A DNA stretch of 64,000 nt from an uncultured Candidatus Poseidoniales archaeon (GCA_902520595.1 CABYOM010000001.1:528-64527), one strand, 5' to 3'; shown: positions 28,326-44,170, counted from the first letter of the stretch. Notes: generated by a model not told the origin, from the sequence alone. Translations and numbers: made by a program.

Positions 28326-28356
28326 CAGGAACGGTTATTAGAATCCTGAAAGAGTG

Positions 28357-31123: not shown

Positions 31124-33421
31124 TTGAACTCAGCAAAAACCGCATGCTGCTCACTTGAGCACCTTTTTGTAATAGATACCCAAGGACATTGTATGACTGC
31201 TCAGCCAACTGGTTCTCTCGACCCGTGGTGCAAAGATGGCAGCGAATGTAAACCCGAATGGGATGCAGAAAAAATGGGCCATGAACATCCTCTGGAATTT
31301 ATGGCGGAGTTACTGCAACAGTGGCCCACTGGTGCGCCAACTGTTGATTTAGAAGACGAAGAGCGTCACCTACGTTTCATCCAGATTGTAGCTGGTTATC
31401 CTGAAATCGGCAGAGGAATGTATCCTCTAGACTGGCCGACACACCCAATGTCTGTGAAGGCGCTTCAACTCTCATTATTTCTCGATAGTTTGGCTGTTCC
31501 TGAAGAATTAATTCAAAATCCTTCAATTAAAGCACATTCCGTTCGAAGTGCAATATTGGCTTTGGATGCTCGAAAATACGAATATGGAAAAAAAGGGAAA
31601 TTGGATAAAACCCAACTCCAGTTATTACATGGAGAATGTTTAAGTCTGCTTTTCAAAGTAATTCGAGTCTATGTGAATTGGGAATCAAGCATTGATGAAA
31701 ATGGGGATAAATCAGCTTCCCATTATGAACATTTATTTCTAAATAACTTACATTCTAGCCAAAAGAAGCGGCGAGAAGGATGGTGGTTCGATTCCAATTC
31801 GGAAAAGAAATTCAAACTAGATCTGGCCAAATCTGAACAAGTGAACAGAGAGCAACATACTCACCAAATTAAACTCGGTTCTATTCAAAAATGGATTCAA
31901 GAATGGTCAACAGAAAATTCAAAAAATTACCCATATGAAGAAAACACTCGTCACAACTTACTTATTGGCGCATCTGTGATGTTAGAGTGCTTATTCGCCA
32001 AAATCAGGCAACATATAATCACAGAATACCGGCCAGGATGCGTCATAATTGATGGAGGTGGTAGAATTGAATTTCTCACGAAGAACGGTGATGTAGAGAG
32101 CGAGATGAAGAAAGTAATTGAAAACTCATTTCTAATTTCAAAGAACCATCATCACCCGTTTCAAGATATTATTGAACGAACTTTGCGCGAATACGGGGAT
32201 GGAAGAATAAACAAACCTCAGTTTCCTTCAATAGAATGGGACACTGATACCAACCCTCCGAGACCTAAACGGTCTGCTTACGAAAGATTCATCGGAGATA
32301 AAAGAGCTATCGAATTCTTTCCCCCAATAAAGTACAACGGTGAAGATCTCTACGAAGAGACGGAAAAAGATCAATTTGGCTGTTCGTTGTGCTCCAATGA
32401 AGATGGCCCCCTCGAATCAATATCTAAATCTGTAAAAAAGGGTCAATTTAAAATTCAAGATGTTTGTTTTCTACATGCTCTTATGTTTCGAATTGGAGAG
32501 GCGCAGCAAAGGCGCGACTCAAGCATTCGGCGAAAAGGAAAGAGCATTCCAAAATCAGTGGGAATTCATTCATGTACATTTCTAGACCTCAATGCCCTCG
32601 GTTCAATGTTTGGCACTCCAATTTCAAATACTCAAAACATTATGGAAAAAATACTCCACTTTCACCATCAATCAAAGAAAGATGGTGTTTCACAAAAGCA
32701 TTTACTGGTGATAGAACAAAAACGTAAAAACAAAATTGGAATGCAAAACAAGGTTCGCCAAATGTTAGAAAATAACAACGTGATCACTCAATCAATACTT
32801 GATGAAGAAAATGATGAGAATTTCAAATTGTATATACTTGAAACTCAAGAGCAATTAAGTACTTTCAAAGCCCGTAAGTCTTTCAGGTTTAACTCAAAAT
32901 GGTGGAGTTCTATATCTCAAATAGTTGATACGGATTCAAAACATTTTGGTGAAATTGGAGCATGGGTTGCTGCAGGAGACGACCTTCTCCTTGTGCGAAG
33001 GGGAGTCATTGGAGAAGAAGATGAAACACTTCAACAACAACTGAATGAACTTGATAAATTATTGAAACTTGAATTTCCGAATTCAGCCATAAAATTCTCA
33101 TTTTGTGCAGGATTAACTAATAGAAAAAGTTCCAATGTTGAAGGTCAAAAATGGGAAAAGATACCCGATATGATTCAACGAGCAAGAAAGAAAGAAAAAC
33201 AAGCGAAAAATTATTGGAAAACGAGAGCTGATAAAAGCGACCGTGATGATTTAATCTCAGAGTATGACTCAATTAGTGGAAGTATTAAACGTAAAAAAGG
33301 CTGGAAATTGATGAGTGAATGGGTTCCAGAAGACGGGCCTGTTTATTCAATTCCTTCAGTGAGAGAAGGAGTACCAAGAGAAGAAGAAAGTATGATTTAT
33401 CATTCAAGCATCTATGATTGA
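31124..33421 (+). CDS. Cas10-like (mCpol/GGDD-type) palm-domain nucleotide cyclase, orphan
   Basis: The motif order matches Cas10: 'RHNLLIGASVMLECL...GCVIIDGGGRIEFL' (palm 1); 'CSLCSNEDG...VCFLHALMFRIGE' (Zn knuckle); 'CTFLDLNALGSMFG' (DxD/N-LG metal motif, D488 at 32585-32587); 'ARKSFRFNSKWW'; 'GAWVAAGDDLLLV' (GGDD equivalent, 32969-32983); 'FSFCAGLT'. The track start is TTG at 31124; the first ATG is at 31193. Confidence 0.55.
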   Translation: MNSAKTACCSLEHLFVIDTQGHCMTAQPTGSLDPWCKDGSECKPEWDAEKMGHEHPLEFMAELLQQWPTGAPTVDLEDEERHLRFIQIVAGYPEIGRGMYPLDWPTHPMSVKALQLSLFLDSLAVPEELIQNPSIKAHSVRSAILALDARKYEYGKKGKLDKTQLQLLHGECLSLLFKVIRVYVNWESSIDENGDKSASHYEHLFLNNLHSSQKKRREGWWFDSNSEKKFKLDLAKSEQVNREQHTHQIKLGSIQKWIQEWSTENSKNYPYEENTRHNLLIGASVMLECLFAKIRQHIITEYRPGCVIIDGGGRIEFLTKNGDVESEMKKVIENSFLISKNHHHPFQDIIERTLREYGDGRINKPQFPSIEWDTDTNPPRPKRSAYERFIGDKRAIEFFPPIKYNGEDLYEETEKDQFGCSLCSNEDGPLESISKSVKKGQFKIQDVCFLHALMFRIGEAQQRRDSSIRRKGKSIPKSVGIHSCTFLDLNALGSMFGTPISNTQNIMEKILHFHHQSKKDGVSQKHLLVIEQKRKNKIGMQNKVRQMLENNNVITQSILDEENDENFKLYILETQEQLSTFKARKSFRFNSKWWSSISQIVDTDSKHFGEIGAWVAAGDDLLLVRRGVIGEEDETLQQQLNELDKLLKLEFPNSAIKFSFCAGLTNRKSSNVEGQKWEKIPDMIQRARKKEKQAKNYWKTRADKSDRDDLISEYDSISGSIKRKKGWKLMSEWVPEDGPVYSIPSVREGVPREEESMIYHSSIYD

Positions 33422-33466: not shown

Positions 33467-35131
33467 TCACGCATCTGCCATGGCCTTCTCATCAGAAAGA
33501 CCTTTGAGTTCGACTGGATTCAACTCGATGATTGGCTGTGTTTTTGGATGGATTTTCAAGGCGAATTTCACGGGTAATTCTTTTTTCAATCGGATCAATC
33601 GCTTGTTTTCAGCAACGAGCTCTTCATTCACTTTTTGCATGTCTTCAACTTTCTGAATGAGTTCATTGACACGTTGTTCGAGCGCTTCACGTGCCGCAGA
33701 TTCCTTCTTCAGTTCTGATCGAAGCAGACGAGTTGTGTCTTCAATTTTGCCACCCAACTTCATTTGCAATGCTGCTCGAGCAGTGGATTCTTCCTTTACT
33801 TTCGTCGAAACCTGACTGATTTCTCTCTCAAGTTGGTCATGTGCACGAGAGAATTTATCCTTGATCGAATCAAAACTCTTACGGATTTGTGGAACCTTCT
33901 TTGACAACATATCATCAAGCTCACGGCTCAACTTATCGATGGTCTGGAACCGTGCTTCGAGAATATCATCCTCGTCTCCAAGTGCCTTGCGATGACTGTA
34001 AAGCAATCCTGGCATAATAAATGGAATTTCTTCCTTTCCTTTTACATTCTGGAAATAGCGCATTCGTGTCAAGAATTTATTGTACCGTGCTTCAAGGTCT
34101 TCACTGAGTTTTACAACCGCATTTGCAGATTGAGCATCTTCATTTCGTGCGGCTTTTTCCGAGATAAAAACCCCGTGTTCTTTTCGGAGCGGGTCAACAA
34201 CAACAGCGACAAAACGGCCGTCTTGACGGTTTGAGCGAAGATGGCCAAAGGTGTTGATATCAATTCCTGACAAGAAAATACCGATGTCTGGGTGAGTGTG
34301 AATCCATCCGATAATCTGAATGTTTGGAGTATGAGGGCCGCCACATCGACTGTTGGCCATATCACAAGCATCCATTGCCATAGCGAGAGCTCCTCCGTCA
34401 AATTCACAATACCCTGGACTTGCTTCAGTTTGTTTTGGAAAGAAACCACAGGTAACGACATTATTTCCATTATGGTCAATATGTCCAATCAACAAGCCAC
34501 CCATCTCAAGACGGCCGCGTGGCTGAGTGAACACTGTCGTTTGGTCAATAATTTCCTGAGGCACCAATGCTGGGTGGTCTTTCACTCGAGCCGTTCGGCG
34601 GCCTCCACCCGGAATACGTTGTGGAACGACAAAGAACGAACGGCCAATCATATCGTTGGCCATAAGATTGGATACAACTTCTTGGTGGTTATCGCGCACT
34701 TCTAAAGGAGAACCATCGCGAGGTCGCAGACCTGCTCTTTCAACGACCTGCATTACCGTCTCGCCAGGTTGTGGATTGATGTTATGTCGTGAACCATCTT
34801 GCATGATGAGGGTCAAATGTGCTTGTTTATTCGGGATTTCGTCAAGATCGATACCTTCGTCCCAATCGTCATCAAATTCAATTCCAGCCCCACCTGCAAC
34901 TTTCGCAACACCGACGTAAATGGTCGAGTCGCGATGCGCGGCAGCATTGTTATTCGAAATGACTGAACCCATCGCGTCATAAATGTCGAACTGTCCTTTC
35001 GGTGCGAGTTTCATATCCTGAACAGCTTGCTTCAGGGTGGCATTCTGAGGTACTTCGACCCGTTGCTTTTGGGTTTGATCAAGGGTGTTGGCTACAGTCA
35101 GGGGTATCATTTGGTTTTGCATGTTTTTCAT
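33467..35131 (-). CDS. Ubl-Ubl-JAB/MPN(JAMM) metalloprotease with C-terminal coiled coil
   Basis: Two beta-grasp-like units end in 'VAKVAGG' and 'VVPQRIPGGG'. The JAMM motif is complete: 'LEMGGLLIG' ... 'IIGWIHTHPDIGIFLSGID' (E, HxH, S, D). The last ~200 aa are heptad-rich. The likely true start is the second ATG (35122). Confidence 0.8.
   Translation of the reverse strand: MKNMQNQMIPLTVANTLDQTQKQRVEVPQNATLKQAVQDMKLAPKGQFDIYDAMGSVISNNNAAAHRDSTIYVGVAKVAGGAGIEFDDDWDEGIDLDEIPNKQAHLTLIMQDGSRHNINPQPGETVMQVVERAGLRPRDGSPLEVRDNHQEVVSNLMANDMIGRSFFVVPQRIPGGGRRTARVKDHPALVPQEIIDQTTVFTQPRGRLEMGGLLIGHIDHNGNNVVTCGFFPKQTEASPGYCEFDGGALAMAMDACDMANSRCGGPHTPNIQIIGWIHTHPDIGIFLSGIDINTFGHLRSNRQDGRFVAVVVDPLRKEHGVFISEKAARNEDAQSANAVVKLSEDLEARYNKFLTRMRYFQNVKGKEEIPFIMPGLLYSHRKALGDEDDILEARFQTIDKLSRELDDMLSKKVPQIRKSFDSIKDKFSRAHDQLEREISQVSTKVKEESTARAALQMKLGGKIEDTTRLLRSELKKESAAREALEQRVNELIQKVEDMQKVNEELVAENKRLIRLKKELPVKFALKIHPKTQPIIELNPVELKGLSDEKAMADA
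34886..35122 (-). repeat. Copy A of a ~237-bp near-identical duplication (Ubl-coding 5' end)
   Basis: Aligns with 35621..35857 at a constant offset of 735. I see only two mismatches (34889 vs 35624, and the atcctg/atactg change giving D to Y). Confidence 0.9.
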
Positions 35132-35194
35132 CTCCGTTTTGGGTTTTCAATTACTAATTTTGTGAAGTGTTTCTTATTCTGTTAAATTTGACAT
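35132..35194 (-). promoter_or_regulatory. Leader cassette 1: palindromic TATA-like motif (35180-35193) + GGAG RBS
   Basis: Minus strand reads TAG-ATGTCAAATTTAACAGAATAAGAAACACTTCACAAAATTAGTAATTGAAAACCCAAAACGGAGATGAAAAACATG. About 85-90% identical to 36310-36369. Confidence 0.5.
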
Positions 35195-35857
35195 CTAGGC
35201 GTTCAATAGATTTTGAATGTGATTGATGTAAGCACCAATCCGGCGAATAGGGTCGTTTCCAATTTGATTCAGATGTGGTAGAATCTGGCCATGACAAATC
35301 CAATGGCTTGGTTTATTGGTTCCTGGAAGCGTATTGCTTGAGCCTACTCCGTAGGAAACACTTGGCGTATTTCCATTAAAGATGGAGACACTGGGTCGTC
35401 GCGTGATTTGGTCGTGGTTGAGCACATATGCGTGAGGTAAGCCAGATGATGCGTTTGGGCAATGAATGGCAATTTGCCAAAAACCGTTACTGGTTTTTCC
35501 TTTGGATGGAAACTGAAGAGAAATCATAGAGGTATGAGTTGCGTTGGTATGAATTCGAACTGGGCGAAGAGATGGATACTCAACTTTGAGTTCTGCCAAC
35601 CGTTCACGCGGGATGCCTGAAGCTCCACCTGCAACTTTCGCAACACCGACGTAAATGGTCGAGTCGCGATGCGCGGCAGCATTGTTATTCGAAATGACTG
35701 AACCCATCGCGTCATAAATGTCGAACTGTCCTTTCGGTGCGAGTTTCATATACTGAACAGCTTGCTTCAGGGTGGCATTCTGAGGTACTTCGACCCGTTG
35801 CTTTTGGGTTTGATCAAGGGTGTTGGCTACAGTCAGGGGTATCATTTGGTTTTGCAT
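35195..35857 (-). CDS. Ubl-E2 (UBC-like) fusion protein
   Basis: The N-terminal 79 aa are identical, bar one residue, to Ubl1 of the JAB protein and end in 'VAKVAGG'. The remainder follows a UBC pattern: 'RERLAELKVEY', 'FWQIAIHCPNASSGLPHAYVL', 'SHWICHGQIL' (candidate catalytic Cys) and 'IGAYINHIQNLL'. Confidence 0.6.
   Translation of the reverse strand: MQNQMIPLTVANTLDQTQKQRVEVPQNATLKQAVQYMKLAPKGQFDIYDAMGSVISNNNAAAHRDSTIYVGVAKVAGGASGIPRERLAELKVEYPSLRPVRIHTNATHTSMISLQFPSKGKTSNGFWQIAIHCPNASSGLPHAYVLNHDQITRRPSVSIFNGNTPSVSYGVGSSNTLPGTNKPSHWICHGQILPHLNQIGNDPIRRIGAYINHIQNLLNA
35621..35857 (-). repeat. Copy B of the ~237-bp near-identical duplication
   Basis: See copy A (34886..35122). Confidence 0.9.
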
Positions 35858-35877
35858 ATTTCCATCTCCATGGGATT

Positions 35878-35988: not shown

Positions 35989-36009
35989 CTCCATTTTTAC
36001 TTCATATCG

Positions 36010-36309
36010 TCAATAATTGTTATCGTAATACTCTTCACGTTCATCGGGGGTGTCACCAGGCATGTCTGCATACTCAGCAGGTTCTTCTTCTGGATCGTAA
36101 GAGTCTTCATCTTCTTCGATATATTCGTCCCCTTCCTCGTAATCATCCTCGTAATCATCATCGTAATCATCATAGTCGTCATTCATGGTGTTCTGAGAAT
36201 CATCATAATCTTCTTTTGAGTCGTATCCGCGAGACTGATAGTAAGCGTCGTTGTTTGGGTTCATCTGGTTCGAGCGGTTATCATCTGAATGTTTTGACAT
36301 GTTTTTCAT
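36010..36309 (-). CDS. Hyper-acidic D/E/Y-rich small protein
   Basis: 99-aa ORF ('DDYDDYDDDYEDDYEEGDEYIEEDEDSYDPEEEP...') with its own leader cassette. Low complexity but on the correct strand with an RBS. Confidence 0.5.
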   Translation of the reverse strand: MKNMSKHSDDNRSNQMNPNNDAYYQSRGYDSKEDYDDSQNTMNDDYDDYDDDYEDDYEEGDEYIEEDEDSYDPEEEPAEYADMPGDTPDEREEYYDNNY

Positions 36310-36369
36310 CTCCGTTGGTTTTCAATATCTTATTTTGTGAAGTATTTCTAATTCTGTTAAATTTGACGT
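36310..36369 (-). promoter_or_regulatory. Leader cassette 2: motif 36355-36368 + GGAG RBS
   Basis: Minus strand reads TAA-ACGTCAAATTTAACAGAATTAGAAATACTTCACAAAATAAGATATTGAAAACCAACGGAGATGAAAAACATG. Confidence 0.5.
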
Positions 36370-36612
36370 TTAGCCATGACGTGGGCAAGACGAATCATTG
36401 CAACAGGCTCCGCAAGAATCGTTGATACAGTCAGCAGCAGCGAGATTACCGCAATCACATGTATCTGAGCACCCGCAATTGCAATTCTTGGAAGAAGAGC
36501 ATGTAGCCCCACCTGGTCCTTCATGGCATTCTTCATTAGCGGCAATACATGTGTCTCCACATGGTTTTCCGATACAGCATACTGGGTGTCCGTTATTTGG
36601 CATATTTTTCAT
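36370..36612 (-). CDS. Cysteine-rich small protein (20 Cys in 80 aa)
   Basis: 'PVCCIGKPCGDTCIAANEECHEG...NCNCGCSDTCDCG...CGACCNDSSCPRHG'. Has its own leader cassette. Metallothionein- or knottin-like composition; no family recognised. Confidence 0.55.
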   Translation of the reverse strand: MKNMPNNGHPVCCIGKPCGDTCIAANEECHEGPGGATCSSSKNCNCGCSDTCDCGNLAAADCINDSCGACCNDSSCPRHG

Positions 36613-36671
36613 CTCCGTTGGTTTTCATAATCTTGGGTTGTTAAGATTCCAGATAGTTGTTAAATTTGATA
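36613..36671 (-). promoter_or_regulatory. Leader cassette 3: motif 36658-36671 + GGAG RBS
   Basis: Minus strand reads ...TTATCAAATTTAACAACTATCTGGAATCTTAACAACCCAAGATTATGAAAACCAACGGAGATGAAAAATATG. The motif lies inside the 3' end of the upstream ORF. Confidence 0.45.
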
Positions 36672-37096
36672 ATCTCGGATAATGGCCGAGGATCGATACT
36701 TTCTCCTGTTTGTGAATCAAACAGTTTGTATGATGCTGATTTTCTATCTCTGTGCGCGAAAATTAGTCGTCCATGTCGATGCTTACCGTTCGCTTTGACG
36801 TGTTTGCTCCAAGAGATATAGAGTGCCTGAACTAAGATTGTTAATCCTGTAATGTATACGATACAATGAGAAAATAATCCAAATGAATTCAATACTCGAT
36901 CGGTAACTCGAATATGTTCTTCAAGATTCATGACTTCCTCGACCGTATTTGGGAATATGCTCTGACTGACAACTTCTGAAGTTAATTCAGAGATAATCTC
37001 GTGCCTGTTATCGGTCAAACTGAGTTCTACAATGTTTTGATAACCGCCTCCACAAGAAGCAATCACATCACTAATAATAAAAGACAATTTAAGCAC
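36641..37096 (-). CDS. Hypothetical protein with one central TM helix
   Basis: 151-aa ORF with a GTG start that overlaps the preceding small basic ORF by 8 nt. TM 'FSHCIVYITGLTILVQALYISW'. Confidence 0.45.
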   Translation of the reverse strand: MLKLSFIISDVIASCGGGYQNIVELSLTDNRHEIISELTSEVVSQSIFPNTVEEVMNLEEHIRVTDRVLNSFGLFSHCIVYITGLTILVQALYISWSKHVKANGKHRHGRLIFAHRDRKSASYKLFDSQTGESIDPRPLSEIIKFNNYLES

Positions 37097-37253
37097 CCAC
37101 CTTTGCAGTATGTTGTTTTACATCTTTCATGGTCAGGAGGTAGCTTTTCTCTTCTCGGAAGACTTTCCAAGAAGATTTATTTTTCTTGAAACGACGCTGC
37201 GTTTTCGGTTTGTTCATTGTACTCGTTTTTGTTTTTCGGTATGTTCGGGACAT
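37089..37253 (-). CDS. Small basic protein (54 aa)
   Basis: 'MSRTYRKTKTSTMNKPKTQRRFKKNKSSWKVF...'. The ATG at 37253 is preceded by GGAAGTGAACAAATG, the same RBS context as the 221-aa gene. Confidence 0.4.
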   Translation of the reverse strand: MSRTYRKTKTSTMNKPKTQRRFKKNKSSWKVFREEKSYLLTMKDVKQHTAKVGA

Positions 37254-37300
37254 TTGTTCACTTCCTTCATACAATGGCCTCAACCAGAAGATGAGTTTTC

Positions 37301-37314
37301 ATTAAAATTGACAA
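37301..37314 (-). promoter_or_regulatory. Palindromic TATA-like motif copy (TGTCAATTTTAAT on coding strand)
   Basis: Sits 47 nt upstream of the ATG at 37253, immediately after the stop of the 221-aa gene. Confidence 0.4.
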
Positions 37315-37318
37315 AAAG

Positions 37319-37984
37319 CTAGAATATCCAAGCCAATAACTCACCAGCATAGGACAATATACCGACGATGACCCAGACAAGGAGTGCTATAATTGCAATA
37401 AAGAACCAAATTATGAACTCAAGAATTTCGTAGATGAATTCGAATATACTGATAATAAATTCGAATACACTACCTATGAAGTTTGCAACTGCCACTAGAA
37501 AATCAACGAACGATACACCAACTTCCCATAGGAATTCTAAGAATGCCCAAATTTCTTCAAATATCGGCAGAAGGGCGTTGAAAGCAAAGTAAGCACCACC
37601 CAGGATTAAGCCCATTACGGTGACAAAAACGATCGCTTCGAAAATTTCTGGTATTGACGAAAGAATGTTACCAAACAGGGAATTTTTTTCTGCCTGAACA
37701 GGATTTTGAGGCCGTTCAAATCTTTGATTATTTTGACCTAATTCAATTCTCCGATTCTTTTTCCCATGCTTTTTACAATAACGTGAACTGCAACATAATC
37801 TGCATGAATTGGTAATGCAAGTGCGGCTACCGGTGTTCCCACATTTACATCGAGGCTGCGGGTTGGCAACTCTTGGTTTGATCATTTTCGGATTTATATC
37901 CAAGAGAATTTTTGCAGGGAAGGGATTGATTGATCCCGCATCGGGATTTTCAAAAAGGTCTGCAAGGTCAATCCCTTCTTCCAT
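37319..37984 (-). CDS. Cys-rich N-domain + multi-TM membrane protein (candidate effector)
   Basis: N-terminal 'CKCGNTGSRTCITNSCRLCCSSRYCKKH'. The C-terminal ~110 aa are very hydrophobic with reiterated 'FEFI' ('SVFEFIISIFEFIYEILEFIIWFFIAII'). Confidence 0.55.
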   Translation of the reverse strand: MEEGIDLADLFENPDAGSINPFPAKILLDINPKMIKPRVANPQPRCKCGNTGSRTCITNSCRLCCSSRYCKKHGKKNRRIELGQNNQRFERPQNPVQAEKNSLFGNILSSIPEIFEAIVFVTVMGLILGGAYFAFNALLPIFEEIWAFLEFLWEVGVSFVDFLVAVANFIGSVFEFIISIFEFIYEILEFIIWFFIAIIALLVWVIVGILSYAGELLAWIF

Positions 37985-38039
37985 ATGTTCACTTCCAATT
38001 TGTTGTTACTTTCTCATTCGATAACGAAGAGAAAAAGAA

Positions 38040-38052
38040 ATTAAATTTGATA
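38040..38052 (-). promoter_or_regulatory. Palindromic TATA-like motif copy (TATCAAATTTAAT)
   Basis: Sits 55 nt upstream of the ATG at 37984. An RBS-like GGAAGTGAACATATG follows. Confidence 0.4.
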
Positions 38053-38059
38053 ATGAATC

Positions 38060-38248
38060 TCACGCCGAGGAATGAGTGACGGAAAGGAGAACATGTCCAC
38101 ACTCACAACGAGGAAGTTCAATTCCTGTGAACACCATACGTTCTCTGTAAGCGCTGATATCAACGGGAATCTTTTGACCACAACGGCAAACCAGGATAGA
38201 AACCCACTTTCCTTGAGATTCGACTTCATCATCAATCCAAAGTCTCAT
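38060..38248 (-). CDS. Small Zn-ribbon protein (CxC...CxC), translationally coupled to E1-A
   Basis: 'MRLWIDDEVESQGKWVSILVCRCGQKIPV...LPRCECGHVL'. Its ATG (38248-38246) overlaps the E1-A TGA (38247-38245) as ATGA. Confidence 0.55.
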   Translation of the reverse strand: MRLWIDDEVESQGKWVSILVCRCGQKIPVDISAYRERMVFTGIELPRCECGHVLLSVTHSSA

Positions 38249-39801
38249 TCCATCCCCTCCGCCTTTGTGATTGATTGAGGGGGGGCATTCGTGTCTTCTT
38301 GGTCCCAAAGAGCATTTTCAAGTTGTTGAACACCGTCTTTTCGAGATACAATTCCCTGCGAAAGATTGCAATACACTTCATTATAACGCGCATTCCAATT
38401 GACCGAGCCAATACTCGAAATGTTTTGCCCTGTCAGGCGCTGAAGAGCAGAAATAGCTTGTAGAGAGCCTACAAAAGCGTTGGTAATGGCGAGTGAGGAA
38501 AGGGGTACTTCGCCATCTTCTTGACACGAATATACAACCTGGTCATGAGCAACTGAAGGACCATATATTTCGACTAAATTCGTATTTGAAAATTCGGTAT
38601 ATTGTGCAAACAATCCTGTGATTCCTCCGTTTACATACGGTTGATTTTTCCGAGCAGCGATCAAATCAGCAAGAACGCGAGGGCGCATTGCATCAAGACA
38701 GCCAAGAATAGCATCAGTGTGTTCAAGTTGAAGCCGTATTCCATCATCATTCAAAACCTCATAGTGTTGAAGAATGGATTCATCAGTGTCGAAAAGCAAT
38801 TCATCAAGGGCAAATCCTTCTTCTTCATCGGTTTCAACGGTGTTTTGAGGAGATTGAAGGAGGCCATCATGCAGTTCGTAAGCGATTGAAATTTCGGCGT
38901 CGGGAAGGTTGCGATTCAACCAGTCTTTAGCAGCTTCAATTTTTGGCCTTCCAATATCTGCTTCGGAAAAAATAACTTGCCGGTTGAGATTATGACGTTC
39001 AACTTCCATATCTTTATCGAAAACAAGAAGTTGCAGATCACTAAAATTAGAATTTTTTAATCCATTCACGATCGAATGCAGCGCCCACGTACCTAAGCCT
39101 CCTGCCCCAACGATGGTCAAATGACCTGAAGGGTTGGTCTTTGGTTCAGGGAGCGTAAAACGCATGACTGGAAATTTAGGATGAATATTTTCATCCCCAC
39201 CATACACCTGAAGTTTCTTGAGAAGTTCTTGTACCAAGGGAGTATCATCATCTAAACGCATCATTACTCGCTTATGGCCGGTTCCGTCATTTACAGAACG
39301 GATGTTGATGTGAGAATTAATTCCTTCAAGTTGGAAATCGAGATGATTGATACTTCCTTTCATCGAAGGCTCGTTCACCCGAACATTCACTGAAACGGAG
39401 ACTTTTGGCACATCGACTGGAGTGTAGCACTTGGCTCGTCGAAAAATCTCACTCCAAATCAAGCATGCTGAAAGAGTAGCTAGAGAGGGTTCAAAAATCG
39501 GATGAGCGGGTTTTTCGCAAGGTGTGCCGTCGAGAAATACGCCTCCTTGGCCATAGGATACAAGTATCATTGATGGGTCATGTTTCCATTCGAAATCTAT
39601 TGAATCATGAACCCATGAAAGAGTAAATTCCGAGCCTTCAGATTTACTCGGGAAATTCTTTACTCCCAATTGGTCAGCTAATTGCTTCATGGAGTGTTTC
39701 AATGCCTGTGGAATTGATTCCTCATCCACGAAAGTCACGTTTAGTGATTCTACTCTCTCTTGGTGAACCAGACCCCGTTGTCGACTAAAGATATCACTCA
39801 T
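38245..39801 (-). CDS. E1-like (ThiF/MoeB/UBA-family) adenylating enzyme A, two-lobed
   Basis: The C-terminal half has 'LTIVGAGGLGTWAL', 'DKDMEVERHNLNRQ', 'DIGRPKIEAAK', 'CLDAMRPRVL' and 'SCQEDGEVP'. The N-terminal half starts with the ThiF-type 'FSRQRGLV' but lacks GxGxxG. Its ATGA overlap with the Cdc48 stop places the start at 39801. Confidence 0.8.
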   Translation of the reverse strand: MSDIFSRQRGLVHQERVESLNVTFVDEESIPQALKHSMKQLADQLGVKNFPSKSEGSEFTLSWVHDSIDFEWKHDPSMILVSYGQGGVFLDGTPCEKPAHPIFEPSLATLSACLIWSEIFRRAKCYTPVDVPKVSVSVNVRVNEPSMKGSINHLDFQLEGINSHINIRSVNDGTGHKRVMMRLDDDTPLVQELLKKLQVYGGDENIHPKFPVMRFTLPEPKTNPSGHLTIVGAGGLGTWALHSIVNGLKNSNFSDLQLLVFDKDMEVERHNLNRQVIFSEADIGRPKIEAAKDWLNRNLPDAEISIAYELHDGLLQSPQNTVETDEEEGFALDELLFDTDESILQHYEVLNDDGIRLQLEHTDAILGCLDAMRPRVLADLIAARKNQPYVNGGITGLFAQYTEFSNTNLVEIYGPSVAHDQVVYSCQEDGEVPLSSLAITNAFVGSLQAISALQRLTGQNISSIGSVNWNARYNEVYCNLSQGIVSRKDGVQQLENALWDQEDTNAPPQSITKAEGME

Positions 39802-41987
39802 GGTATCACCCACTCGCCTTCATCATCATTATCGTCATCCCAATCGTCATCAAGAATCACATTCTTTTCAACGGAGGCAACGGCTCTCAACAAATGACGT
39901 GAAACGCGAAGACCTTGTTCCAAATCTTCTGTTTTCAGACATACCTCGGTCTTTTCAGCGATGCAGCGACGAGCTGAACAATGCTTGATTTGATCAATGA
40001 ATCCCTTCAATTCTGCACCTGTGGCTTTGTCTCTCAAACGAAGAACTGTGTTCAACCATTCTTGATTGGAAATAGTTGATGGAATATCTTCAATCTGGTA
40101 TTGGAAGAACTCAAAGAAGAGGTCATTGGTGAGTGGCCCAACCTCAATGGATTTACTGAAGCGCCCTGGGCGCAAAAATGCTTCATCGACCAGTTCGATT
40201 TTGTTGGTAGACGCCATAAGATAAATCCCATCTGCAGGCTTCAATCCATCCATCATGGTCAACAATTGAGCCACAACGGAACTCGAATGATGAGCACCTT
40301 CGGAATTATCTCGGTTTCGACCTACTGCGTCGAACTCATCGAAAAACAAGACAACTGGGGCGAGTTCTTCCGCTCGTTGGAACAATTCTCGAACAGCGCG
40401 TTCACTTTCACCAACCCACTTGGACAAGAAATCCGGTCCAGATACGGCCATGAATTGTACGTTTGCCAAACTCGCAGCTGCGCGACCAAGCATGGTTTTA
40501 CCAGTACCGGGCGGTCCGTGAAGCAGGACACCGCCGGAACATGAAAGACCGAGAGATGCATAGATTTCAGGATTGTTAATGGGGTGAACAAGGTGATCGA
40601 TAATCTCGCTTTTAGCACTCGCATGCCCAATCACAGCATCCATTTCAACACGGCCCATTGTTGCCGGACGGCGTTGCTGTGTTGCCCAAGGAGTAAATTT
40701 CTCAAATGCTTGTTCAAAGTCTACAGTCAAGATTTTTAGCCCTTCTAGTTCCCTTTCAGTGAAGTTTTCAGGATTCGTAAGTCTTGGCAGACCGAACTCA
40801 CGATGAAGTCCTTCACCACTCGCATGGCGGCACAAGTTCGCCAGGTCTGCACCGGTGCAGCCTACTGTTTTCATAGCCCAATCGGAAAGGGAAACTCCTT
40901 CCAATGGCATGTTTTTAGAATGTATTTCAAGGATTTTCTCACGGCCATTAACATCAGGATAAGGGACGTGGATTCGGCGGTCAAACCGGCCTGCACGAAG
41001 AAGGGCGGGATCAATTGTTTCGAGAAGATTTGTCGAACCAACGACCAAAACTTGCCCTCGGTCTTCAAACCCATCCAGTTGAATAAGAAGTTCAGTCAAT
41101 ATTCGCTTTTCAAGTTCACCACGACTGTTCTTACGGTCTCCGGCAATAGCATCGATTTCATCGATATAAATGACAGAAGGAGCTTCTCGCTTCGCTTCAG
41201 CAAACTTTTCACGAAGAGCTTGTTCAGAAGCACCGTATACACCACTGATAATTTCAGGGCCACTGATACAGATAAAATTGCATTGAGCCTCTCGGGCTAA
41301 AGCACGTGCAAGGAGCGTTTTTCCTACACCGGGCGGGCCGTAAAGAAGTATTCCTCGCGGAGGTTCCTGTCCCGATTTAACATAAATTTCAGGGTGGATA
41401 AGTGGTACAATTGCAATCTCTTTAATCGCTTCAATGGTTTTGTCAAGTCCACCTATGTCATCAAAAGAAACCGATGGGACATCAATAATTGAACGTCGTG
41501 ACTTTTTACCAATAATTTGGATGTCGATGTCAGGGGTGAGCCAACCATGCTGTGGGCGGCAACGTGTAACTTGAAGTTCGAGTGGCTCTCCATTCAGAGA
41601 AACTGTAAAGTGGTCATCTTTGGAAAGATAAACATCACGAATTGCCGCCTTAACGAGGGGCATTTCGTGGTCTTCGAGGGAACGAGTTGTAGGTTGAATT
41701 CGGACCTTAGCAAATGGGCCTTGAACCTTGAGGTGATCAATCTCAACGGAATCGCCTTCATTGATTTGCGCGTTGATTCGAAGAGTAGGCCCAAGGGCAA
41801 CTGAATCGTAAGGAATGTTCGGGTCGTATCGCAAAACCGCAACCGTGGTTTTTTGGCCTATAATTCGTACAGGGGAACGGCTCGCATAACCGTTGTCTTC
41901 AGCCGCTTGCGTATTCATGTAAACATCGTCTCCAGCTCCGCCATCAATCATTGGTGCAATACAGGTAAATTGGTTCATAATAATCAT
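39798..41987 (-). CDS. Cdc48/p97/VAT-like double-ring AAA+ ATPase
   Basis: N-domain pattern ('VRIIGQKTTVAVL...RINAQINEGDSVEI'). D1 has 'LLYGPPGVGKTLLARA...VIYIDEIDAI'. D2 has 'LLHGPPGTGKTMLGRA...VLFFDEFDAV'. The acidic tail is 'DDDWDDDNDDEGEWVIP'. Confidence 0.88.
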   Translation of the reverse strand: MIIMNQFTCIAPMIDGGAGDDVYMNTQAAEDNGYASRSPVRIIGQKTTVAVLRYDPNIPYDSVALGPTLRINAQINEGDSVEIDHLKVQGPFAKVRIQPTTRSLEDHEMPLVKAAIRDVYLSKDDHFTVSLNGEPLELQVTRCRPQHGWLTPDIDIQIIGKKSRRSIIDVPSVSFDDIGGLDKTIEAIKEIAIVPLIHPEIYVKSGQEPPRGILLYGPPGVGKTLLARALAREAQCNFICISGPEIISGVYGASEQALREKFAEAKREAPSVIYIDEIDAIAGDRKNSRGELEKRILTELLIQLDGFEDRGQVLVVGSTNLLETIDPALLRAGRFDRRIHVPYPDVNGREKILEIHSKNMPLEGVSLSDWAMKTVGCTGADLANLCRHASGEGLHREFGLPRLTNPENFTERELEGLKILTVDFEQAFEKFTPWATQQRRPATMGRVEMDAVIGHASAKSEIIDHLVHPINNPEIYASLGLSCSGGVLLHGPPGTGKTMLGRAAASLANVQFMAVSGPDFLSKWVGESERAVRELFQRAEELAPVVLFFDEFDAVGRNRDNSEGAHHSSSVVAQLLTMMDGLKPADGIYLMASTNKIELVDEAFLRPGRFSKSIEVGPLTNDLFFEFFQYQIEDIPSTISNQEWLNTVLRLRDKATGAELKGFIDQIKHCSARRCIAEKTEVCLKTEDLEQGLRVSRHLLRAVASVEKNVILDDDWDDDNDDEGEWVIP

Positions 41988-42021: not shown

Positions 42022-42035
42022 TGTTAAATATGATA
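42022..42035 (-). promoter_or_regulatory. Palindromic TATA-like motif copy (TATCATATTTAACA)
   Basis: Overlaps the last codons and stop of E1-B, 34-43 nt upstream of the Cdc48 start. Confidence 0.35.
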
Positions 42036-43568
42036 TTTGCAAGGTTCATCAAACCAAGGCGGCTGGGTTGGAGCGAATTGTTCAATCTGTCCTTCGAACC
42101 AGGTGCCTCGGAAATTACGATCTTTGTAATCGGGATTCAAATTCATCATCGTCAGTAAAGCCATCATAGAACCAACCCATGCCGTTGAAGTCACAATTGA
42201 AGCAATTGGTCGAATACCCTCTTCAGTACAAGAGATTACTTCGCTTGAGCGAGCGTTTTCTTTACCATAACGGCAAACCATGCAACCTTTTTGACCGAAG
42301 GTTTCAACGACTCCATGAAGTGCTTCAGTTGCACCATTTATCATGACACGCCCATTGTTAATTGCAGCCTCATTCAGAATTGTTCGAGCGACCATGTTGT
42401 CAAGACAAGCGAGATATATGCTGCTCTTACTTAATGCGTCAAACAACAGTGAAGGTTCAAGCCCGAGGTCATCAAACTCTTCCTCAAAATCGAAATCCTC
42501 TTGCACCAAATGATGTGGAGTGAGATACTCAAAATACGATTCAACATGAATCTTGAGATTCAGTGATTGGAGCTGTTGAGCAGCGGTCAATGCTTTCATT
42601 GAACCAACGTGGGTTTCATTGTAGAGTACTTGGCGATTGAGATTATGAAGTTCTATTTCTGCATCGCCATCGACAACGTGAATCGTTCCTTCTTCCATCT
42701 GCTCAACAAGTAAAGGGGCGCTCCAACTGCCAAGTCCACCTGCTCCCAAGAGGACGATATCATGACCAGAAAGAGACCATGAGGAATCGAATACCTCAAC
42801 AGGTGCATCCCATGGGATCAAACCCAAATCATCTGAAACTGAAAGTTGTTTTTGCGAAGACTGCATCGTTCGAGAAAGGAAATCAAAAGGACTCAAGTTT
42901 GGTTGAGTCGATGGTCGATATCGAGCAAGTGTCGCATGACCATCGCTGGTTAATTGCACGTCAACCAGTGTCCCATCAATTCCCGTGATATGTTTTCTCA
43001 CTTCTTCAAAGTCCGTAGATTCAACGCGGCATGTGACTGTAAACCATGCGTCGCTAATTTTCATGTGGGCCATACAATCAGCATCTCGAAGCATTTGTTG
43101 TAACATTGTTGCAGCTACAGCCACTCGCATCGATGGAGTAAGAACATGCTCTGAATAAATGGGGGATGGCGAAAGAGGTTGACGAGAAATTTTCGCTCGA
43201 ACTCCTTTCGCATAACCATAAAGATCAGCATGTTGAATGGCATGTGACGGATTCAGGCAAAGATGGTAGTCAAATGAAAGAGGTTCAGATTCTTTTAATG
43301 AGGTAAAGGTCTGACGAAACTGAGGACTTTCTTGCTCCCAATCCTCCCATCGCTTCGCGTTTGGAAAAGTAAGTTTCCAAAACACAGAATCCGGCAGAAC
43401 ATTTGGTCGGAGTACTCCGATGAATCCTGACTCTTGCCCTATACCAAACTGCGAGAGGAGAACAAGAAGGTCGCTTACGCCACCAGAGCTTCCAGAAACG
43501 AGTATTTTCAGATTTGAAACTTGTTCTTGGTCAACAAGACCTCGTTGGCGTCGATATTTATCATTCAT
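42024..43568 (-). CDS. E1-like adenylating enzyme B, two-lobed paralog
   Basis: 'YRRQRGLV' then degenerate 'ILVSGSSGGVSDL' in the N-lobe. The C-lobe has 'IVLLGAGGLGSWSA', 'DGDAEIELHNLNRQ', 'CLDNMVARTIL', 'GCMVCRYG' and 'SCTEEGIRP'. The start is taken at 'MNDKYRRQRGLV'. Confidence 0.8.
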   Translation of the reverse strand: MNDKYRRQRGLVDQEQVSNLKILVSGSSGGVSDLLVLLSQFGIGQESGFIGVLRPNVLPDSVFWKLTFPNAKRWEDWEQESPQFRQTFTSLKESEPLSFDYHLCLNPSHAIQHADLYGYAKGVRAKISRQPLSPSPIYSEHVLTPSMRVAVAATMLQQMLRDADCMAHMKISDAWFTVTCRVESTDFEEVRKHITGIDGTLVDVQLTSDGHATLARYRPSTQPNLSPFDFLSRTMQSSQKQLSVSDDLGLIPWDAPVEVFDSSWSLSGHDIVLLGAGGLGSWSAPLLVEQMEEGTIHVVDGDAEIELHNLNRQVLYNETHVGSMKALTAAQQLQSLNLKIHVESYFEYLTPHHLVQEDFDFEEEFDDLGLEPSLLFDALSKSSIYLACLDNMVARTILNEAAINNGRVMINGATEALHGVVETFGQKGCMVCRYGKENARSSEVISCTEEGIRPIASIVTSTAWVGSMMALLTMMNLNPDYKDRNFRGTWFEGQIEQFAPTQPPWFDEPCKYHI

Positions 43569-43572
43569 TTTA

Positions 43573-44127: not shown

Positions 44128-44170
44128 ATTCTTCACTTCACTTTTTTGATTTCTTGAAACCGTTTCATAT

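What the first reader, a model, noticed from the sequence alone, without database searches (positions are those of the whole stretch)
33467..35857. Ubl moieties are encoded only as N-terminal fusions with internal Gly-Gly: Ubl-Ubl-JAMM and Ubl-E2 'polyproteins'
No free Ubl gene ending in GG-stop exists in the cluster. Instead '...IYVGVAKVAGG' is followed in frame by a linker, a second Ubl ('...VVPQRIPGGG') and the JAMM protease in one protein, and by an E2-like domain in the other. This mirrors eukaryotic ubiquitin, which is always made as a fusion precursor and released by DUBs. It predicts that the JAMM domain self-processes to release active Ubl and, at the same time, a free E2 and a free protease. 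Alternatively the fusions are functional as they stand, giving cis-acting Ubl domains.
Basis: partly seen in the sequence, partly recalled or inferred. Interest (0 to 1): 0.72.

Follow-up and report, generated by a model that had tools for sequence, protein, structure and literature searches.

The report
Archaeal ubiquitin-like tag made only as fusions
In this marine archaeon (Poseidoniales) the ubiquitin-like tag has no gene of its own: it is encoded only as the front end of the system's own E2 enzyme and JAMM protease, always ending in Gly-Gly, so it is most likely cut free, as in eukaryotic ubiquitin precursors and one bacterial system.

Summary
Two minus-strand genes, 35857..35195 and 35131..33467, encode Ubl1-GG-E2-like and Ubl1-GG-linker-Ubl2-GG-JAMM-coiled coil. 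No free Ubl gene ending in GG exists in the 64-kb window.

AlphaFold and Foldseek show that Ubl1 has a ubiquitin fold. The C-terminal domain of the short protein is a divergent UBC/E2 fold with an invariant cysteine. The JAMM domain is Rpn11/CSN5-like and has a complete active-site motif.

Among homologs, all from Poseidoniales (Marine Group II) or unnamed marine metagenomes:
- GG ends Ubl1 in 157 of 157 proteins that match the Ubl1 C-terminal motif.
- GG ends Ubl2 in 85 of 86.
- The residue after the Ubl1 GG is never proline.
- Ubl1 is never followed by a stop.

The partner after GG is interchangeable: E2A, E2B, JAMM or Ubl2. Within a genome the Ubl1 cassettes can be 99-100% identical in DNA, with identity ending exactly at the GG codons.

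This fits a precursor cut after GG by the cluster's JAMM protease. The mechanism is inferred here, not shown. Its closest tested precedent is the bacterial Type I Bub system, where a JAB domain cleaves the Ubl-E2 fusion BubAB. The cluster also holds two E1 paralogs, a second E2 and a Cdc48-like ATPase.

I found no paper describing it. Verdict: new variant of a known kind.

The parts
35195..35857 (-). Gene for Ubl1-GG-E2A (220 aa plus stop)
   Evidence: ORF. AF2 gives pLDDT 86 with a low-confidence hinge at residues 71-80. 95 homologs were found. G77, G78, C188 and G190 are invariant.
35624..35857 (-). Ubl1 module of the E2A gene (residues 1-78); the GG codons are 35624-35629
   Evidence: Foldseek matches ubiquitin, SUMO and NEDD8 at probability 1.0. 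Ubl1 HMM E 2e-42.
35198..35623 (-). E2A domain (residues 79-220), a divergent UBC-like fold; the putative catalytic Cys188 is at 35294-35296
   Evidence: AF2 pLDDT 92.5. All top-50 Foldseek PDB hits are E2 enzymes, E 0.09-0.8, TM mostly 0.41-0.49. Cys is invariant in 50 sequences. There is no sequence-family hit.
33467..35131 (-). Gene for Ubl1-GG-linker-Ubl2-GG-JAMM-coiled coil (554 aa from the first ATG; the probable start is the second ATG at 35122, giving 551 aa)
   Evidence: ORF. 199 homologs. NCBI calls the 551-aa form. GGAG lies 9 nt before the second ATG.
34889..35122 (-). Ubl1 module of the JAMM gene (residues 4-81); the GG codons are 34889-34894
   Evidence: 99.1% DNA identity to 35624-35857.
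34823..34888 (-). Acidic linker AGIEFDDDWDEGIDLDEIPNKQ between Ubl1 and Ubl2
   Evidence: An acidic-Trp motif is conserved in all di-Ubl homologs.
34601..34822 (-). Ubl2 module (residues 104-177), ending PGGG; the GGG codons are 34601-34609
   Evidence: hhalign Ubl1 vs Ubl2 gives 96.7% probability, E 4e-10. GG is present in 85/86 homologs.
34097..34570 (-). JAMM/MPN+ metalloprotease domain (about residues 188-345; E209, H278, H280, S288, D291)
   Evidence: Pfam JAB E 6.5e-7. PDB hits: Rpn11 E 4.8e-8, CSN5 1.3e-7, AMSH-LP 6e-7, Caldiarchaeum Rpn11-like 7e-6.
33572..33979 (-). C-terminal coiled-coil region (about residues 385-520)
   Evidence: Weak hits to EzrA, SMC, ZorA and tropomyosin-type coiled coils. 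It is present in all JAMM homologs, including the unfused ones.
34886..35126 (.). Copy 1 of the 241-nt direct repeat (Ubl1 cassette)
35621..35861 (.). Copy 2 of the 241-nt direct repeat (Ubl1 cassette), 99% identical; identity ends one codon after the GG
38245..39813 (-). E1-like adenylating enzyme A (522 aa; ThiF domain at 231-466 plus a roughly 230-aa N-terminal extension)
   Evidence: Pfam ThiF E 6e-23. PDB hits: MoeB, NAE1 catalytic subunit (UBA3), SAE2.
39798..41987 (-). Cdc48-like double-ring AAA ATPase (729 aa); it overlaps the E1-A start by 16 nt and has an acidic DDDW..WVIP tail
   Evidence: NCBIfam CDC48 E 1.6e-148. Tail conservation.
42024..43595 (-). E1-like adenylating enzyme B (523 aa), a full-length paralog of E1-A
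   Evidence: ThiF-family hits. PDB hits: PaaA, ThiF, Uba4. 24% identity to E1-A, E 4e-23.
43573..44136 (-). Second E2 (E2B class, 187 aa, 'HEN...CGVC') with a degenerate N-terminal Ubl remnant lacking GG
   Evidence: It aligns with the Ubl-E2B proteins P0070-P0087, which carry the HPN motif. It gives no Ubl1 HMM hit.
44173..45282 (-). 369-aa protein with a marginal Ubl2-like N-terminus and no GG
   Evidence: Ubl2 HMM E 0.025, searched within the window only. Weak.
36010..38308 (-). Small uncharacterised ORFs between E1-A and E2A: Zn-ribbon 82 aa, Cys-rich plus TM 221 aa, 151 aa, basic 64 aa, Cys-rich 80 aa, acidic 99 aa
   Evidence: no family hits. Partial counterparts exist in L001. Membership in the system is uncertain.
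31124..33421 (+). Convergent 765-aa gene conserved next to the JAMM gene; function unknown
   Evidence: 25% identity, E 1e-52, to the 781-aa neighbour in L001. No Pfam or PDB hit.

Best explanation
This is a ubiquitin-like protein conjugation system of Poseidoniales (Marine Group II) archaea. Its modifier is made only as a pro-domain of the system's own enzymes.

Proposed steps (steps 2-5 are inferred, not shown):
1. Translation gives Ubl1-GG-E2A and Ubl1-GG-linker-Ubl2-GG-JAMM-coiled coil.
2. The Rpn11-like JAMM metalloprotease cuts the peptide bond after the Gly-Gly tails. This is probably done in trans between coiled-coil-associated copies, not strictly in cis. It releases Ubl1 (78 aa, ending ...KVAGG), a free E2 and a free protease, and probably an acidic-tailed Ubl2.
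3. One or both ThiF-type E1 paralogs adenylate the exposed C-terminal glycine.
4. The Ubl passes as a thioester to the invariant cysteine of E2A (Cys188) or E2B, and then to lysines of targets.
5. The JAMM enzyme also reverses conjugation, and the co-encoded Cdc48-like unfoldase handles the tagged proteins.

Fusion ties the production of modifier, E2 and protease together. It also means that no activatable Ubl exists until the protease has acted.

What is shown: the domain identities, the invariance of GG, the modular exchange at GG and the absence of a free Ubl gene.
For: Anatomy
- ORFs.
- Ubl fold.
- E2 fold and invariant Cys.
- Complete JAMM motif and Rpn11/CSN5 similarity.
- Two E1 paralogs and a Cdc48-like ATPase on the same strand.

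GG junctions
- GG ends Ubl1 in 157/157 proteins that match its C-terminal motif and Ubl2 in 85/86.
- The positions just after GG are gap-rich and variable.
- The residue after the Ubl1 GG is A, G, S, R, N, Q, T or E in 155 distinct junctions, and never P.

No free Ubl1
- There is none in the window.
- There is none in 27 other loci.
- There is none among the 366 related proteins retrieved from the searches of 5.8 billion and 1.84 billion proteins.

Modularity at GG
- The same Ubl1 precedes E2A, E2B, Ubl2-E2A, Ubl2-E2B, Ubl2-JAMM or JAMM directly.

Concerted evolution
- Ubl1 DNA is 99.1% identical between the two genes here.
- It is 100% identical among three genes in L003.
- The median between genomes is 65%.
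- The identical tract ends exactly at the GG codon.

Loss goes together
- Decayed Ubl remnants (window E2B, L009 E2A) have also lost GG.

Experimental precedent
- The JAB domain of BubCD cleaves the Ubl-E2 fusion BubAB right after its conserved Gly (PMC11601596).
- BilC cleaves BilA-GFP after Gly (PMC10557695).
- Caldiarchaeum Rpn11 processes pro-Ub (PMC6043591).

Established knowledge
- E1 enzymes need a free C-terminal carboxylate.
Against: - There is no biochemical evidence for this family. Cleavage, the protease responsible and the conjugation chemistry are all inferred.
- The E2 assignment rests on a predicted structure with weak Foldseek statistics (E 0.09 or worse) and no sequence-family hit.
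- E2A lacks the HPN motif; only the E2B class keeps H-x-N.
- Ubl2-like domains without GG occur in other cluster proteins. Examples are the L001 229-aa protein and, marginally, the window 369-aa protein. So not every Ubl in the system is a released modifier.
- One di-Ubl homolog lacks GG after Ubl2 (P0168).
- Only about 10-14 residues separate the Ubl2 GG from the first helix of the MPN domain. This argues against cis cleavage but not against trans cleavage.
- No E3 was recognised.
- A SAMP/ThiS-type Ubl elsewhere in the genome cannot be excluded from a 64-kb window.
Confidence: 0.68

Rival explanations
1. The fusions work uncleaved. The N-terminal Ubl domains act in cis, for example by docking E2 and JAMM onto the Cdc48-like ATPase or the E1, as UBL domains do in Rad23, USP14 or parkin. 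The E1/E2 pair would then conjugate some other Ubl encoded elsewhere.
For: - Ubl2-like domains without GG sit on other cluster proteins (for the L001 229-aa protein; marginal for the window 369-aa protein).
- Decayed Ubl remnants persist on the window E2B and the L009 E2A.
- The rest of the genome is unseen.
- In Giardia, a Ub-eS31 fusion with a mutated glycine is reported as uncleaved (PMC11354881).
Against: - GG is invariant at the exact end of a ubiquitin-like tail in over 150 sequences, while the residues after it vary.
- The same Ubl1 precedes unrelated partners, and three partners in one genome carry 100% identical copies. This argues against partner-specific cis contacts.
- No other Ubl lies in or near the cluster in 28 loci.
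- An analogous bacterial fusion is cleaved (PMC11601596).
Confidence: 0.15
2. The fusions are precursors, but a different peptidase releases the Ubl. The JAMM enzyme only removes Ubl from targets. Alternatively only Ubl1 is released, and Ubl2 stays on the JAMM protein as a regulatory or receptor domain.
For: - In Bub systems a second protease (BubE) exists beside the JAB domain (PMC11601596).
- Ubl2's GG is slightly less strict: 85/86, with AG-AGG and SGG variants.
- Lineages with unfused JAMM-CC exist.
Against: - No other protease family was detected in the cluster.
- JAMM is the only peptidase that co-occurs with the Ubl fusions across lineages. This includes the distant ones, where Ubl-Ubl-E2 lies immediately upstream of JAMM-CC.
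- JAB/JAMM relatives are proven to cut linear Ubl fusions (PMC11601596, PMC10557695, PMC6043591).
Confidence: 0.14
3. The fused ORFs are artefacts of assembly, frameshift or gene calling, and separate Ubl, E2 and JAMM genes exist.
For: Some database homologs are truncated or frameshifted, e.g. P0088, P0094, P0068.
Against: - The open reading frame runs uninterrupted through GG in the window.
- The same holds in well over 100 independent metagenomic and MAG sequences from several sources.
- No Ubl1 is ever followed by a stop.
Confidence: 0.01

Closest known systems
Bacterial Type I Bub (6E.1) operons: BubAB (Ubl-E2 fusion) and BubCD (JAB-E1 fusion) (PMC11601596, PMC11601603)
   Same: The Ubl is encoded only as an N-terminal fusion to the system's E2. 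A conserved glycine marks the junction. An operon-encoded JAB/JAMM peptidase cuts right after it (shown experimentally for Bub), which gives an activatable Ubl and a free E2. Multi-beta-grasp Ubls occur in both.
   Different: - Archaeal, not bacterial.
- The E2 has an invariant Cys rather than the Bub Ser/His oxyester site.
- The JAMM is not fused to E1. It is Rpn11/CSN5-like, carries its own Ubl1-Ubl2 pro-region and has a coiled-coil tail.
- There are two stand-alone E1 paralogs and two E2 classes.
- A Cdc48-like ATPase is present.
- No DUF6527/BubE was found.
- There is no detectable sequence similarity of the E2 to any Pfam or PADLOC model.
Caldiarchaeum subterraneum eukaryote-like ubiquitin operon: Ub, E1, E2, RING E3, Rpn11 (PMC3082918, PMC5654768, PMC6043591)
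   Same: An archaeal system with an E1, a UBC-fold E2 and an Rpn11-type JAMM that must trim the Ub precursor to expose GG. The JAMM here hits CsRpn11 (6fjv) at E 7e-6.
   Different: In Caldiarchaeum, Ub is a separate gene with only a short C-terminal extension, the E2 is recognisable by sequence, and a RING E3 is present. Here the Ubl shows no sequence similarity to Ub (hhalign probability below 1%), it is fused to whole enzymes, and no RING was found.
Eukaryotic ubiquitin precursor genes (UBA52, RPS27A, polyubiquitin; FUBI-eS30)
   Same: The modifier is made only as head-to-tail or N-terminal fusions and is released after Gly-Gly by deubiquitinases. Copies within a genome are kept identical by concerted evolution.
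   Different: In eukaryotes the partners are ribosomal proteins or further Ub copies, not the conjugation and deconjugation enzymes. The releasing enzymes are mostly cysteine DUBs. This is an analogy, not demonstrated homology of the arrangement.
Bil (BilABCD) antiphage systems (PMC10557695)
   Same: An E1, E2, Ubl and JAB set. BilC pre-processes BilA and cuts linear Ubl fusions.
   Different: The Ubl is a separate gene. Only a marginal PADLOC BilD hit was found (E 0.0028), with none to BilA, BilB or BilC.
Archaeal SAMP / UbaA / HvJAMM1 sampylation (PMC4443979, PMC4895103)
   Same: Archaeal Ubl-GG modifiers, an E1 of the ThiF/MoeB type, a JAMM desampylase and links to Cdc48 and proteasomes.
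   Different: SAMPs are free small genes, no E2 is involved, and one E1 serves both sulfur transfer and conjugation.
Architectures listed by Iyer, Burroughs and Aravind 2006: polyUbl fused to an E2-like domain (operon 6e); phage TAPI Ubl fused to JAB (PMC1779556)
   Same: Ubl-E2-like and Ubl-JAB fusions had been noted as domain architectures.
   Different: Those are bacterial or phage proteins of other families. The E2-like domain there was called inactive. Archaeal or Poseidoniales members were not described.

Membership tests
Type I Bub (6E.1) | Ubl encoded as an N-terminal fusion to the E2, with a conserved Gly at the junction | tested here: met
Type I Bub (6E.1) | JAB/JAMM peptidase fused to the N-terminus of the E1 (BubCD) | tested here: not met
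   JAMM is a separate gene (33467-35131). Both E1s have non-JAB N-terminal regions.
Type I Bub (6E.1) | E2 catalytic Ser with a nearby invariant His (oxyester chemistry); no catalytic Cys | tested here: not met
   Cys is invariant at the equivalent loop in 50 sequences.
Type I Bub (6E.1) | DUF6527 (BubE) serine protease in the operon | tested here: not met
   No Pfam hit in any cluster ORF scanned.
Caldiarchaeum-type eukaryote-like archaeal ubiquitin system | Rpn11-type JAMM with a complete E...HxH...S..D motif | tested here: met
Caldiarchaeum-type eukaryote-like archaeal ubiquitin system | Stand-alone ubiquitin gene recognisably similar to eukaryotic Ub | tested here: not met
   No free Ubl. 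hhalign of the Ubl profiles against Ub/NEDD8/SUMO gives probability below 1%. Only the fold matches.
Caldiarchaeum-type eukaryote-like archaeal ubiquitin system | UBC-family E2 detectable by sequence (Pfam UQ_con), and a small RING E3 | tested here: not met
   No Pfam hit for E2A or E2B and no RING hit in the small Cys-rich ORFs. The E2 fold is seen only by structure.
UBC/E2 fold superfamily | alpha-beta4-loop(Cys)-alpha-alpha topology with a catalytic Cys; an HPN motif upstream | tested here: inconclusive
   The topology and the unanimous E2 hits support it, but with weak E-values. Cys is invariant. The H-x-N motif is kept only in the E2B class. Catalysis is untested.
JAMM/MPN+ deubiquitinase-type metalloproteases | Pfam JAB above the curated cut-off, with Glu, His-x-His, Ser and Asp ligands | tested here: met
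   29.6 bits against a cut-off of 22.5. The motif was read from the sequence and the alignment.
JAMM/MPN+ deubiquitinase-type metalloproteases | Cleaves after the Ubl C-terminal Gly-Gly (peptide and isopeptide bonds) | not testable with these tools
   Needs biochemistry.
BilABCD | Matches to the BilA, BilB, BilC and BilD models | tested here: not met
   Only BilD at E 0.0028, over the Rossmann segment.
SAMP/UbaA sampylation | Free SAMP genes and an E2-independent pathway | tested here: not met
   Two E2-like genes are present and there is no free Ubl in the window.

The most novel reading that the evidence does not exclude
Poseidoniales, among the most abundant planktonic archaea, may carry a self-contained ubiquitin-like tagging and unfolding system that evolved features thought typical of eukaryotes:
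- the modifier is made only as fusion precursors, and the copies are kept identical by concerted evolution;
- an Rpn11-type protease is paired with a Cdc48-like AAA unfoldase;
- there are two E1/E2 branches and two distinct modifiers, Ubl1 and Ubl2.

The twist is that the precursors are the pathway's own E2 and deubiquitinase. The pathway would then be switched on by one proteolytic step, and Ubl, E2 and protease would be produced in fixed ratios.
Probability: 0.3. Interest if true: 0.8.

Novelty: new variant of a known kind. Interest (0 to 1): 0.6.

Why it matters
If the processing is real, it gives a third, independent example of a ubiquitin-like modifier that exists only as a fusion precursor. 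The other two are eukaryotic ubiquitin genes and bacterial BubAB. It would be the first such example in archaea outside the TACK/Asgard lineages, and the first in which the deubiquitinase itself is one of the precursors.

The system combines a thioester-type E2, an Rpn11-like JAMM and a Cdc48-like ATPase in one conserved cluster. That makes it a compact model for how tagging, unfolding and de-tagging became coupled.

It also assigns a function to proteins that are unnamed or labelled hypothetical in very abundant marine archaea. And it yields concrete mass-spectrometric signatures to look for in existing ocean metaproteomes.

Tried and rejected
- Sequence-family searches for the E2 domain gave nothing useful. 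This covers Pfam, NCBIfam and PADLOC on the window protein; permissive Pfam scans of E2A and E2B homologs; and phmmer and profile hmmsearch against PDB sequences. Only structure prediction of the isolated domain worked.
- The fold search with the two-domain model returned almost only ubiquitin-fold hits (a few low-probability multi-domain ones), none of them E2 enzymes, so it said nothing about the E2 part.
- hhalign of the Ubl1 and Ubl2 profiles against Ub/NEDD8/SUMO gave no signal. The Ubl assignment therefore rests on the fold.
- Exact look-ups of the 554-aa JAMM protein and of P0209 found no contig. The collection holds the 551-aa form from an NCBI contig of 67,523 bp, without a name.
- PDB searches for the neighbouring 765-aa and 902-aa proteins found nothing meaningful.
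- The bacterial-type promoter and terminator scan was no better than shuffles and does not apply to archaea.
- Rfam found only one tRNA.
- Literature searches for Poseidoniales or MGII with ubiquitin found no description of this system. Grau-Bove 2015 mentions an MGII single-cell genome only for UCH and RING hits.
- I considered whether the cluster is a defence island. Low GC at 28-38 kb, a weak CARF_PDDEXK hit next door and a STAND ATPase next to distant relatives point that way. Conservation across Poseidoniales among housekeeping genes points the other way. I left this open.


Full report
**1. What is there**

On the minus strand, 35857..35195 encodes a 220-aa protein and 35131..33467 a 554-aa protein.

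Both begin with the same roughly 78-residue module, MQNQMIPLTVANTLDQ...STIYVGVAKVAGG.
- In the short protein, 142 further residues follow the GG.
- In the long protein the GG is followed by four parts:
  - an acidic linker (AGIEFDDDWDEGIDLDEIPNKQ);
  - a second 74-residue module ending ...FFVVPQRIPGGG;
  - a JAB/MPN domain;
  - a predicted coiled coil of about 135 residues.

The two 5' ends form a 241-nt direct repeat with two differences. Identity stops one codon after the GG.

The long gene probably starts at its second ATG. GGAG lies 9 nt upstream of it, and NCBI's record of this contig calls a 551-aa product.

**2. Domain identities**

*Ubl1.*
- An AlphaFold2 model of the short protein, built on 50 homologs, has mean pLDDT 86. 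It shows a beta-grasp at residues 5-71 and a low-confidence hinge at 71-80.
- Foldseek against the PDB matches ubiquitin, SUMO, NEDD8, ISG15, Ufm1 and Caldiarchaeum ubiquitin at probability 1.0.

*Ubl2.*
- Its profile aligns with the Ubl1 profile at 96.7% probability (E 4e-10), in register up to the GG. Ubl2 is therefore a second Ubl.
- Neither profile is detectably similar in sequence to Ub, NEDD8 or SUMO.

*The C-terminal domain of the short protein.*
- It has no hit in Pfam, NCBIfam, PADLOC or PDB sequences.
- Modelled alone, it reaches pLDDT 92.5 and pTM 0.88, with the topology helix, four strands, long loop, two helices.
- All 50 best Foldseek PDB matches are E2 enzymes (Ubc13, UbcH5, Rad6, Ubc9 and others) aligned over the full length. 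The statistics are weak, however: E 0.09-0.8, TM 0.29-0.49 and mostly 0.41-0.49, probability up to 0.87.
- One cysteine in the loop (Cys188, W-I-C-H-G) is invariant in 50 sequences.
- A sister class found in relatives and at 44136..43573 in this window (E2B) keeps an H-P/V/C/A/S-N motif upstream of the aligned cysteine (17-20 residues in P0070), like the HPN motif of canonical E2s.
- I therefore accept 'E2-like' as a divergent UBC-fold enzyme. Catalysis is untested.

*The JAMM domain.*
- It passes Pfam's cut-off for the eukaryote-type JAB family (29.6 against 22.5 bits).
- It does not reach the cut-off of the prokaryotic JAB model.
- Its best PDB relatives are Rpn11, CSN5, AMSH-LP and the Caldiarchaeum Rpn11 homolog.
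- Its E...HxH...S..D motif is complete.

**3. Surroundings**

Upstream on the same strand lie, in order:
- a 369-aa protein;
- the second E2 (E2B, with only a decayed Ubl remnant and no GG);
- a ThiF-type E1 (E1-B);
- a Cdc48-like double AAA ATPase;
- a paralogous E1 (E1-A, 24% identical over the full length);
- several small uncharacterised ORFs.

Ribosomal L10P/P0, L1 and Spt5 genes in the window show an archaeal chromosome.

No ORF in any frame of the window is a Ubl that ends in GG-stop. Profile scans find only the two Ubl1 copies and one Ubl2, plus a marginal Ubl2-like N-terminus on the 369-aa protein.

**4. Relatives**

*Distribution.*
- Searches of 5.8 billion proteins gave 95 and 199 hits.
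- The few named hits are Poseidoniales (Marine Group II) or, for one unfused JAMM-CC protein, a generic Euryarchaeota label.
- A scan of 185,579 species-representative genomes found 24 loci. All are from Poseidoniales-type MAGs except one contig in a 'Legionellales' bin, which carries the same Cdc48 gene and is probably misbinned.
- A full HMMER scan of 1.84 billion representatives with the E2-only profile found just 62 clusters. The family is small and lineage-restricted.

*Synteny.* Gene order is conserved in a 574-kb contig (L001) and in L003, with rearrangements. The order is Ubl-E2B, E1-B, Cdc48, E1-A, small ORFs, Ubl-E2A, Ubl-Ubl-JAMM and a convergent gene of about 780 aa.

*Architectures seen*:
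- Ubl1-E2A
- Ubl1-Ubl2-E2A
- Ubl1-E2B
- Ubl1-Ubl2-E2B
- Ubl1-Ubl2-JAMM-CC
- Ubl1-JAMM-CC
- JAMM-CC alone
- apparently unfused E2 domains

In distant lineages with an unfused JAMM-CC, the gene immediately upstream is Ubl1-GG-linker-Ubl2-GG-E2A.

**5. Tests of the junctions**

- Ubl1 ends in x-G-G in all 157 homologs that match its C-terminal motif.
- G77 and G78 are invariant columns, while the positions just after them are gap-rich and variable.
- Ubl2 is followed by GG in 85 of 86 di-Ubl proteins.
- The residue after the Ubl1 GG is A, G, S, R, N, Q, T or E in 155 distinct junctions, and never proline.
- In 366 related proteins and 28 DNA loci, no Ubl1 lies within 30 residues of a C-terminus. 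Every complete Ubl1 is followed by at least 114 more residues.
- Where the fused Ubl has decayed, the GG is gone too (window E2B; L009 E2A).

**6. Concerted evolution**

- Ubl1-coding DNA is 99.1% identical between the two genes of this window.
- It is 100% identical among the three genes of L003 (E2A, E2B, JAMM).
- The median between genomes is 65%.
- Four other genomes keep two variants that are 60-73% identical.
- In L003 the identical cassette spans about 103 nt of leader plus the 234-nt Ubl1 and ends exactly at the last G of the GG codons.
- In the window it ends one codon later.

The unit that recombination moves and homogenises is therefore the Ubl, bounded by GG.

**7. Interpretation**

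An E1 can only adenylate a free C-terminal carboxylate (established knowledge of the ThiF/E1 superfamily). The cluster encodes E1s, E2s and a JAMM peptidase but no free Ubl.

The simplest reading consistent with points 4-6 is that the fusions are precursors:
- The JAMM enzyme cuts after GG and releases Ubl1, a free E2A and the mature protease, and probably Ubl2 with its acidic N-terminal extension.
- The Ubl is then activated and passed to the E2 cysteine and on to targets.
- The JAMM enzyme and the Cdc48-like ATPase act on the conjugates.

All steps after translation are inferred.

Direct precedents exist:
- In bacterial Type I Bub operons the Ubl is always encoded as a Ubl-E2 fusion (BubAB). 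The JAB domain of BubCD cleaves it immediately after the conserved glycine (PMC11601596).
- BilC cleaves BilA and BilA-GFP after Gly (PMC10557695).
- Caldiarchaeum Rpn11 processes pro-ubiquitin (PMC6043591).
- In Giardia, by contrast, a Ub-eS31 fusion with Gly75 replaced by Ala is reported as uncleaved (PMC11354881).

The Ubl2 GG lies only about 10-14 residues before the first MPN helix, and a coiled coil is conserved in all family members. I therefore consider trans cleavage between associated copies at least as likely.

**8. Rivals**

- *Uncleaved, cis-acting Ubl domains.* In favour: Ubl2-like domains without GG sit on other cluster proteins, and decayed remnants persist. Against: GG invariance, partner exchange and identical cassettes.
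- *Release by another protease, or release of Ubl1 only.* This remains possible. No other protease family was detected.
- *An artefact of gene calling.* This is excluded by the number of independent sequences.

**9. Comparison and novelty**

The working principle is that of Type I Bub and, by analogy, of eukaryotic ubiquitin genes. This system is not a Bub member:
- JAMM is not fused to E1.
- The E2 has Cys, not Ser/His.
- No DUF6527 protein is present.

It is also not a Caldiarchaeum-type, Bil or SAMP system (see the membership table).

Ubl-E2-like and Ubl-JAB fusions were listed as bacterial and phage architectures in 2006 (PMC1779556). I found no paper that describes the Poseidoniales system. 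The proteins are unnamed or 'hypothetical' in the databases.

I rate it a new variant of a known kind. It is interesting mainly for four reasons:
- It occurs in archaea.
- The deubiquitinase is itself a precursor.
- The Ubl cassettes show concerted evolution.
- The system is linked to a Cdc48-like ATPase.

Noticed in passing
window 35118-35215, 35972-36069, 36293-36390, 36596-36693, 44120-44217 (minus strand): Several genes of the cluster share a copied promoter and leader cassette (GTCAAATTTAAC ... TATTGAAAACC..AACGGAGATGAAAAACATG). This gives in-frame 'MKNM' N-termini. The A/T-rich box about 70 nt upstream may be an archaeal TATA element, which would imply co-regulation.
   Followed up: partly
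window 39798-39860 (C-terminus of the Cdc48-like ATPase) and 34823-34888 (Ubl1-Ubl2 linker): The ATPase ends in an acidic tail with ...DDDW[VI][VI]P. This tail is conserved in 9 Poseidoniales loci and is not a canonical HbYX motif. The Ubl1-Ubl2 linker carries a similar DDDWDEG motif, so the two may share a binding partner.
   Followed up: partly
window 31124-33421 (+): A convergent 765-aa gene is conserved next to the JAMM gene (25% identity, E 1e-52, to the L001 neighbour). It has IDGGGR and AGDD motifs reminiscent of palm-domain enzymes, and no Pfam or PDB hit. Its 81 homologs are all unnamed.
   Followed up: partly
window 28354-31062 (+): A 902-aa protein has a weak PADLOC CARF_PDDEXK match (E 7.9e-6) and a KKEAEKKA repeat. 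Together with the low GC content, this hints at a defence-type neighbour.
   Followed up: no
window 43573-44136 (-) and 44173-45282 (-): The second E2 (E2B class, HEN...CGVC) keeps only a decayed Ubl remnant without GG. The 369-aa protein upstream has a marginal Ubl2-like N-terminus without GG.
   Followed up: partly
window 36370-36612 (-), 37319-37984 (-), 38060-38308 (-): There are three cysteine-rich small proteins: 80 aa with about 20 Cys; 221 aa with a Cys cluster plus a hydrophobic C-terminal half; and an 82-aa Zn-ribbon-like protein. None matches a known family, and none could be called a RING E3.
   Followed up: partly
L027 4484-4744 and 7351-12105; L028: In a distant lineage, Ubl-Ubl-E2 and JAMM-CC are accompanied by a free 86-aa Ubl2-like ORF ending ...FAIIG, a Zn-ribbon protein and a 1236-aa NB-ARC-like STAND ATPase. 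No E1 is seen within 15 kb.
   Followed up: no
window 48000-56200: This is a very low-GC stretch (0.35-0.37) that contains a 2049-aa ORF (50031..56180). It was not examined.
   Followed up: no
L021 (PBNF01000013.1, 'Legionellales bacterium' MAG): A contig binned as Legionellales carries the start of a Ubl1 gene and a Cdc48-like gene of the Poseidoniales type. It is probably a binning error.
   Followed up: no
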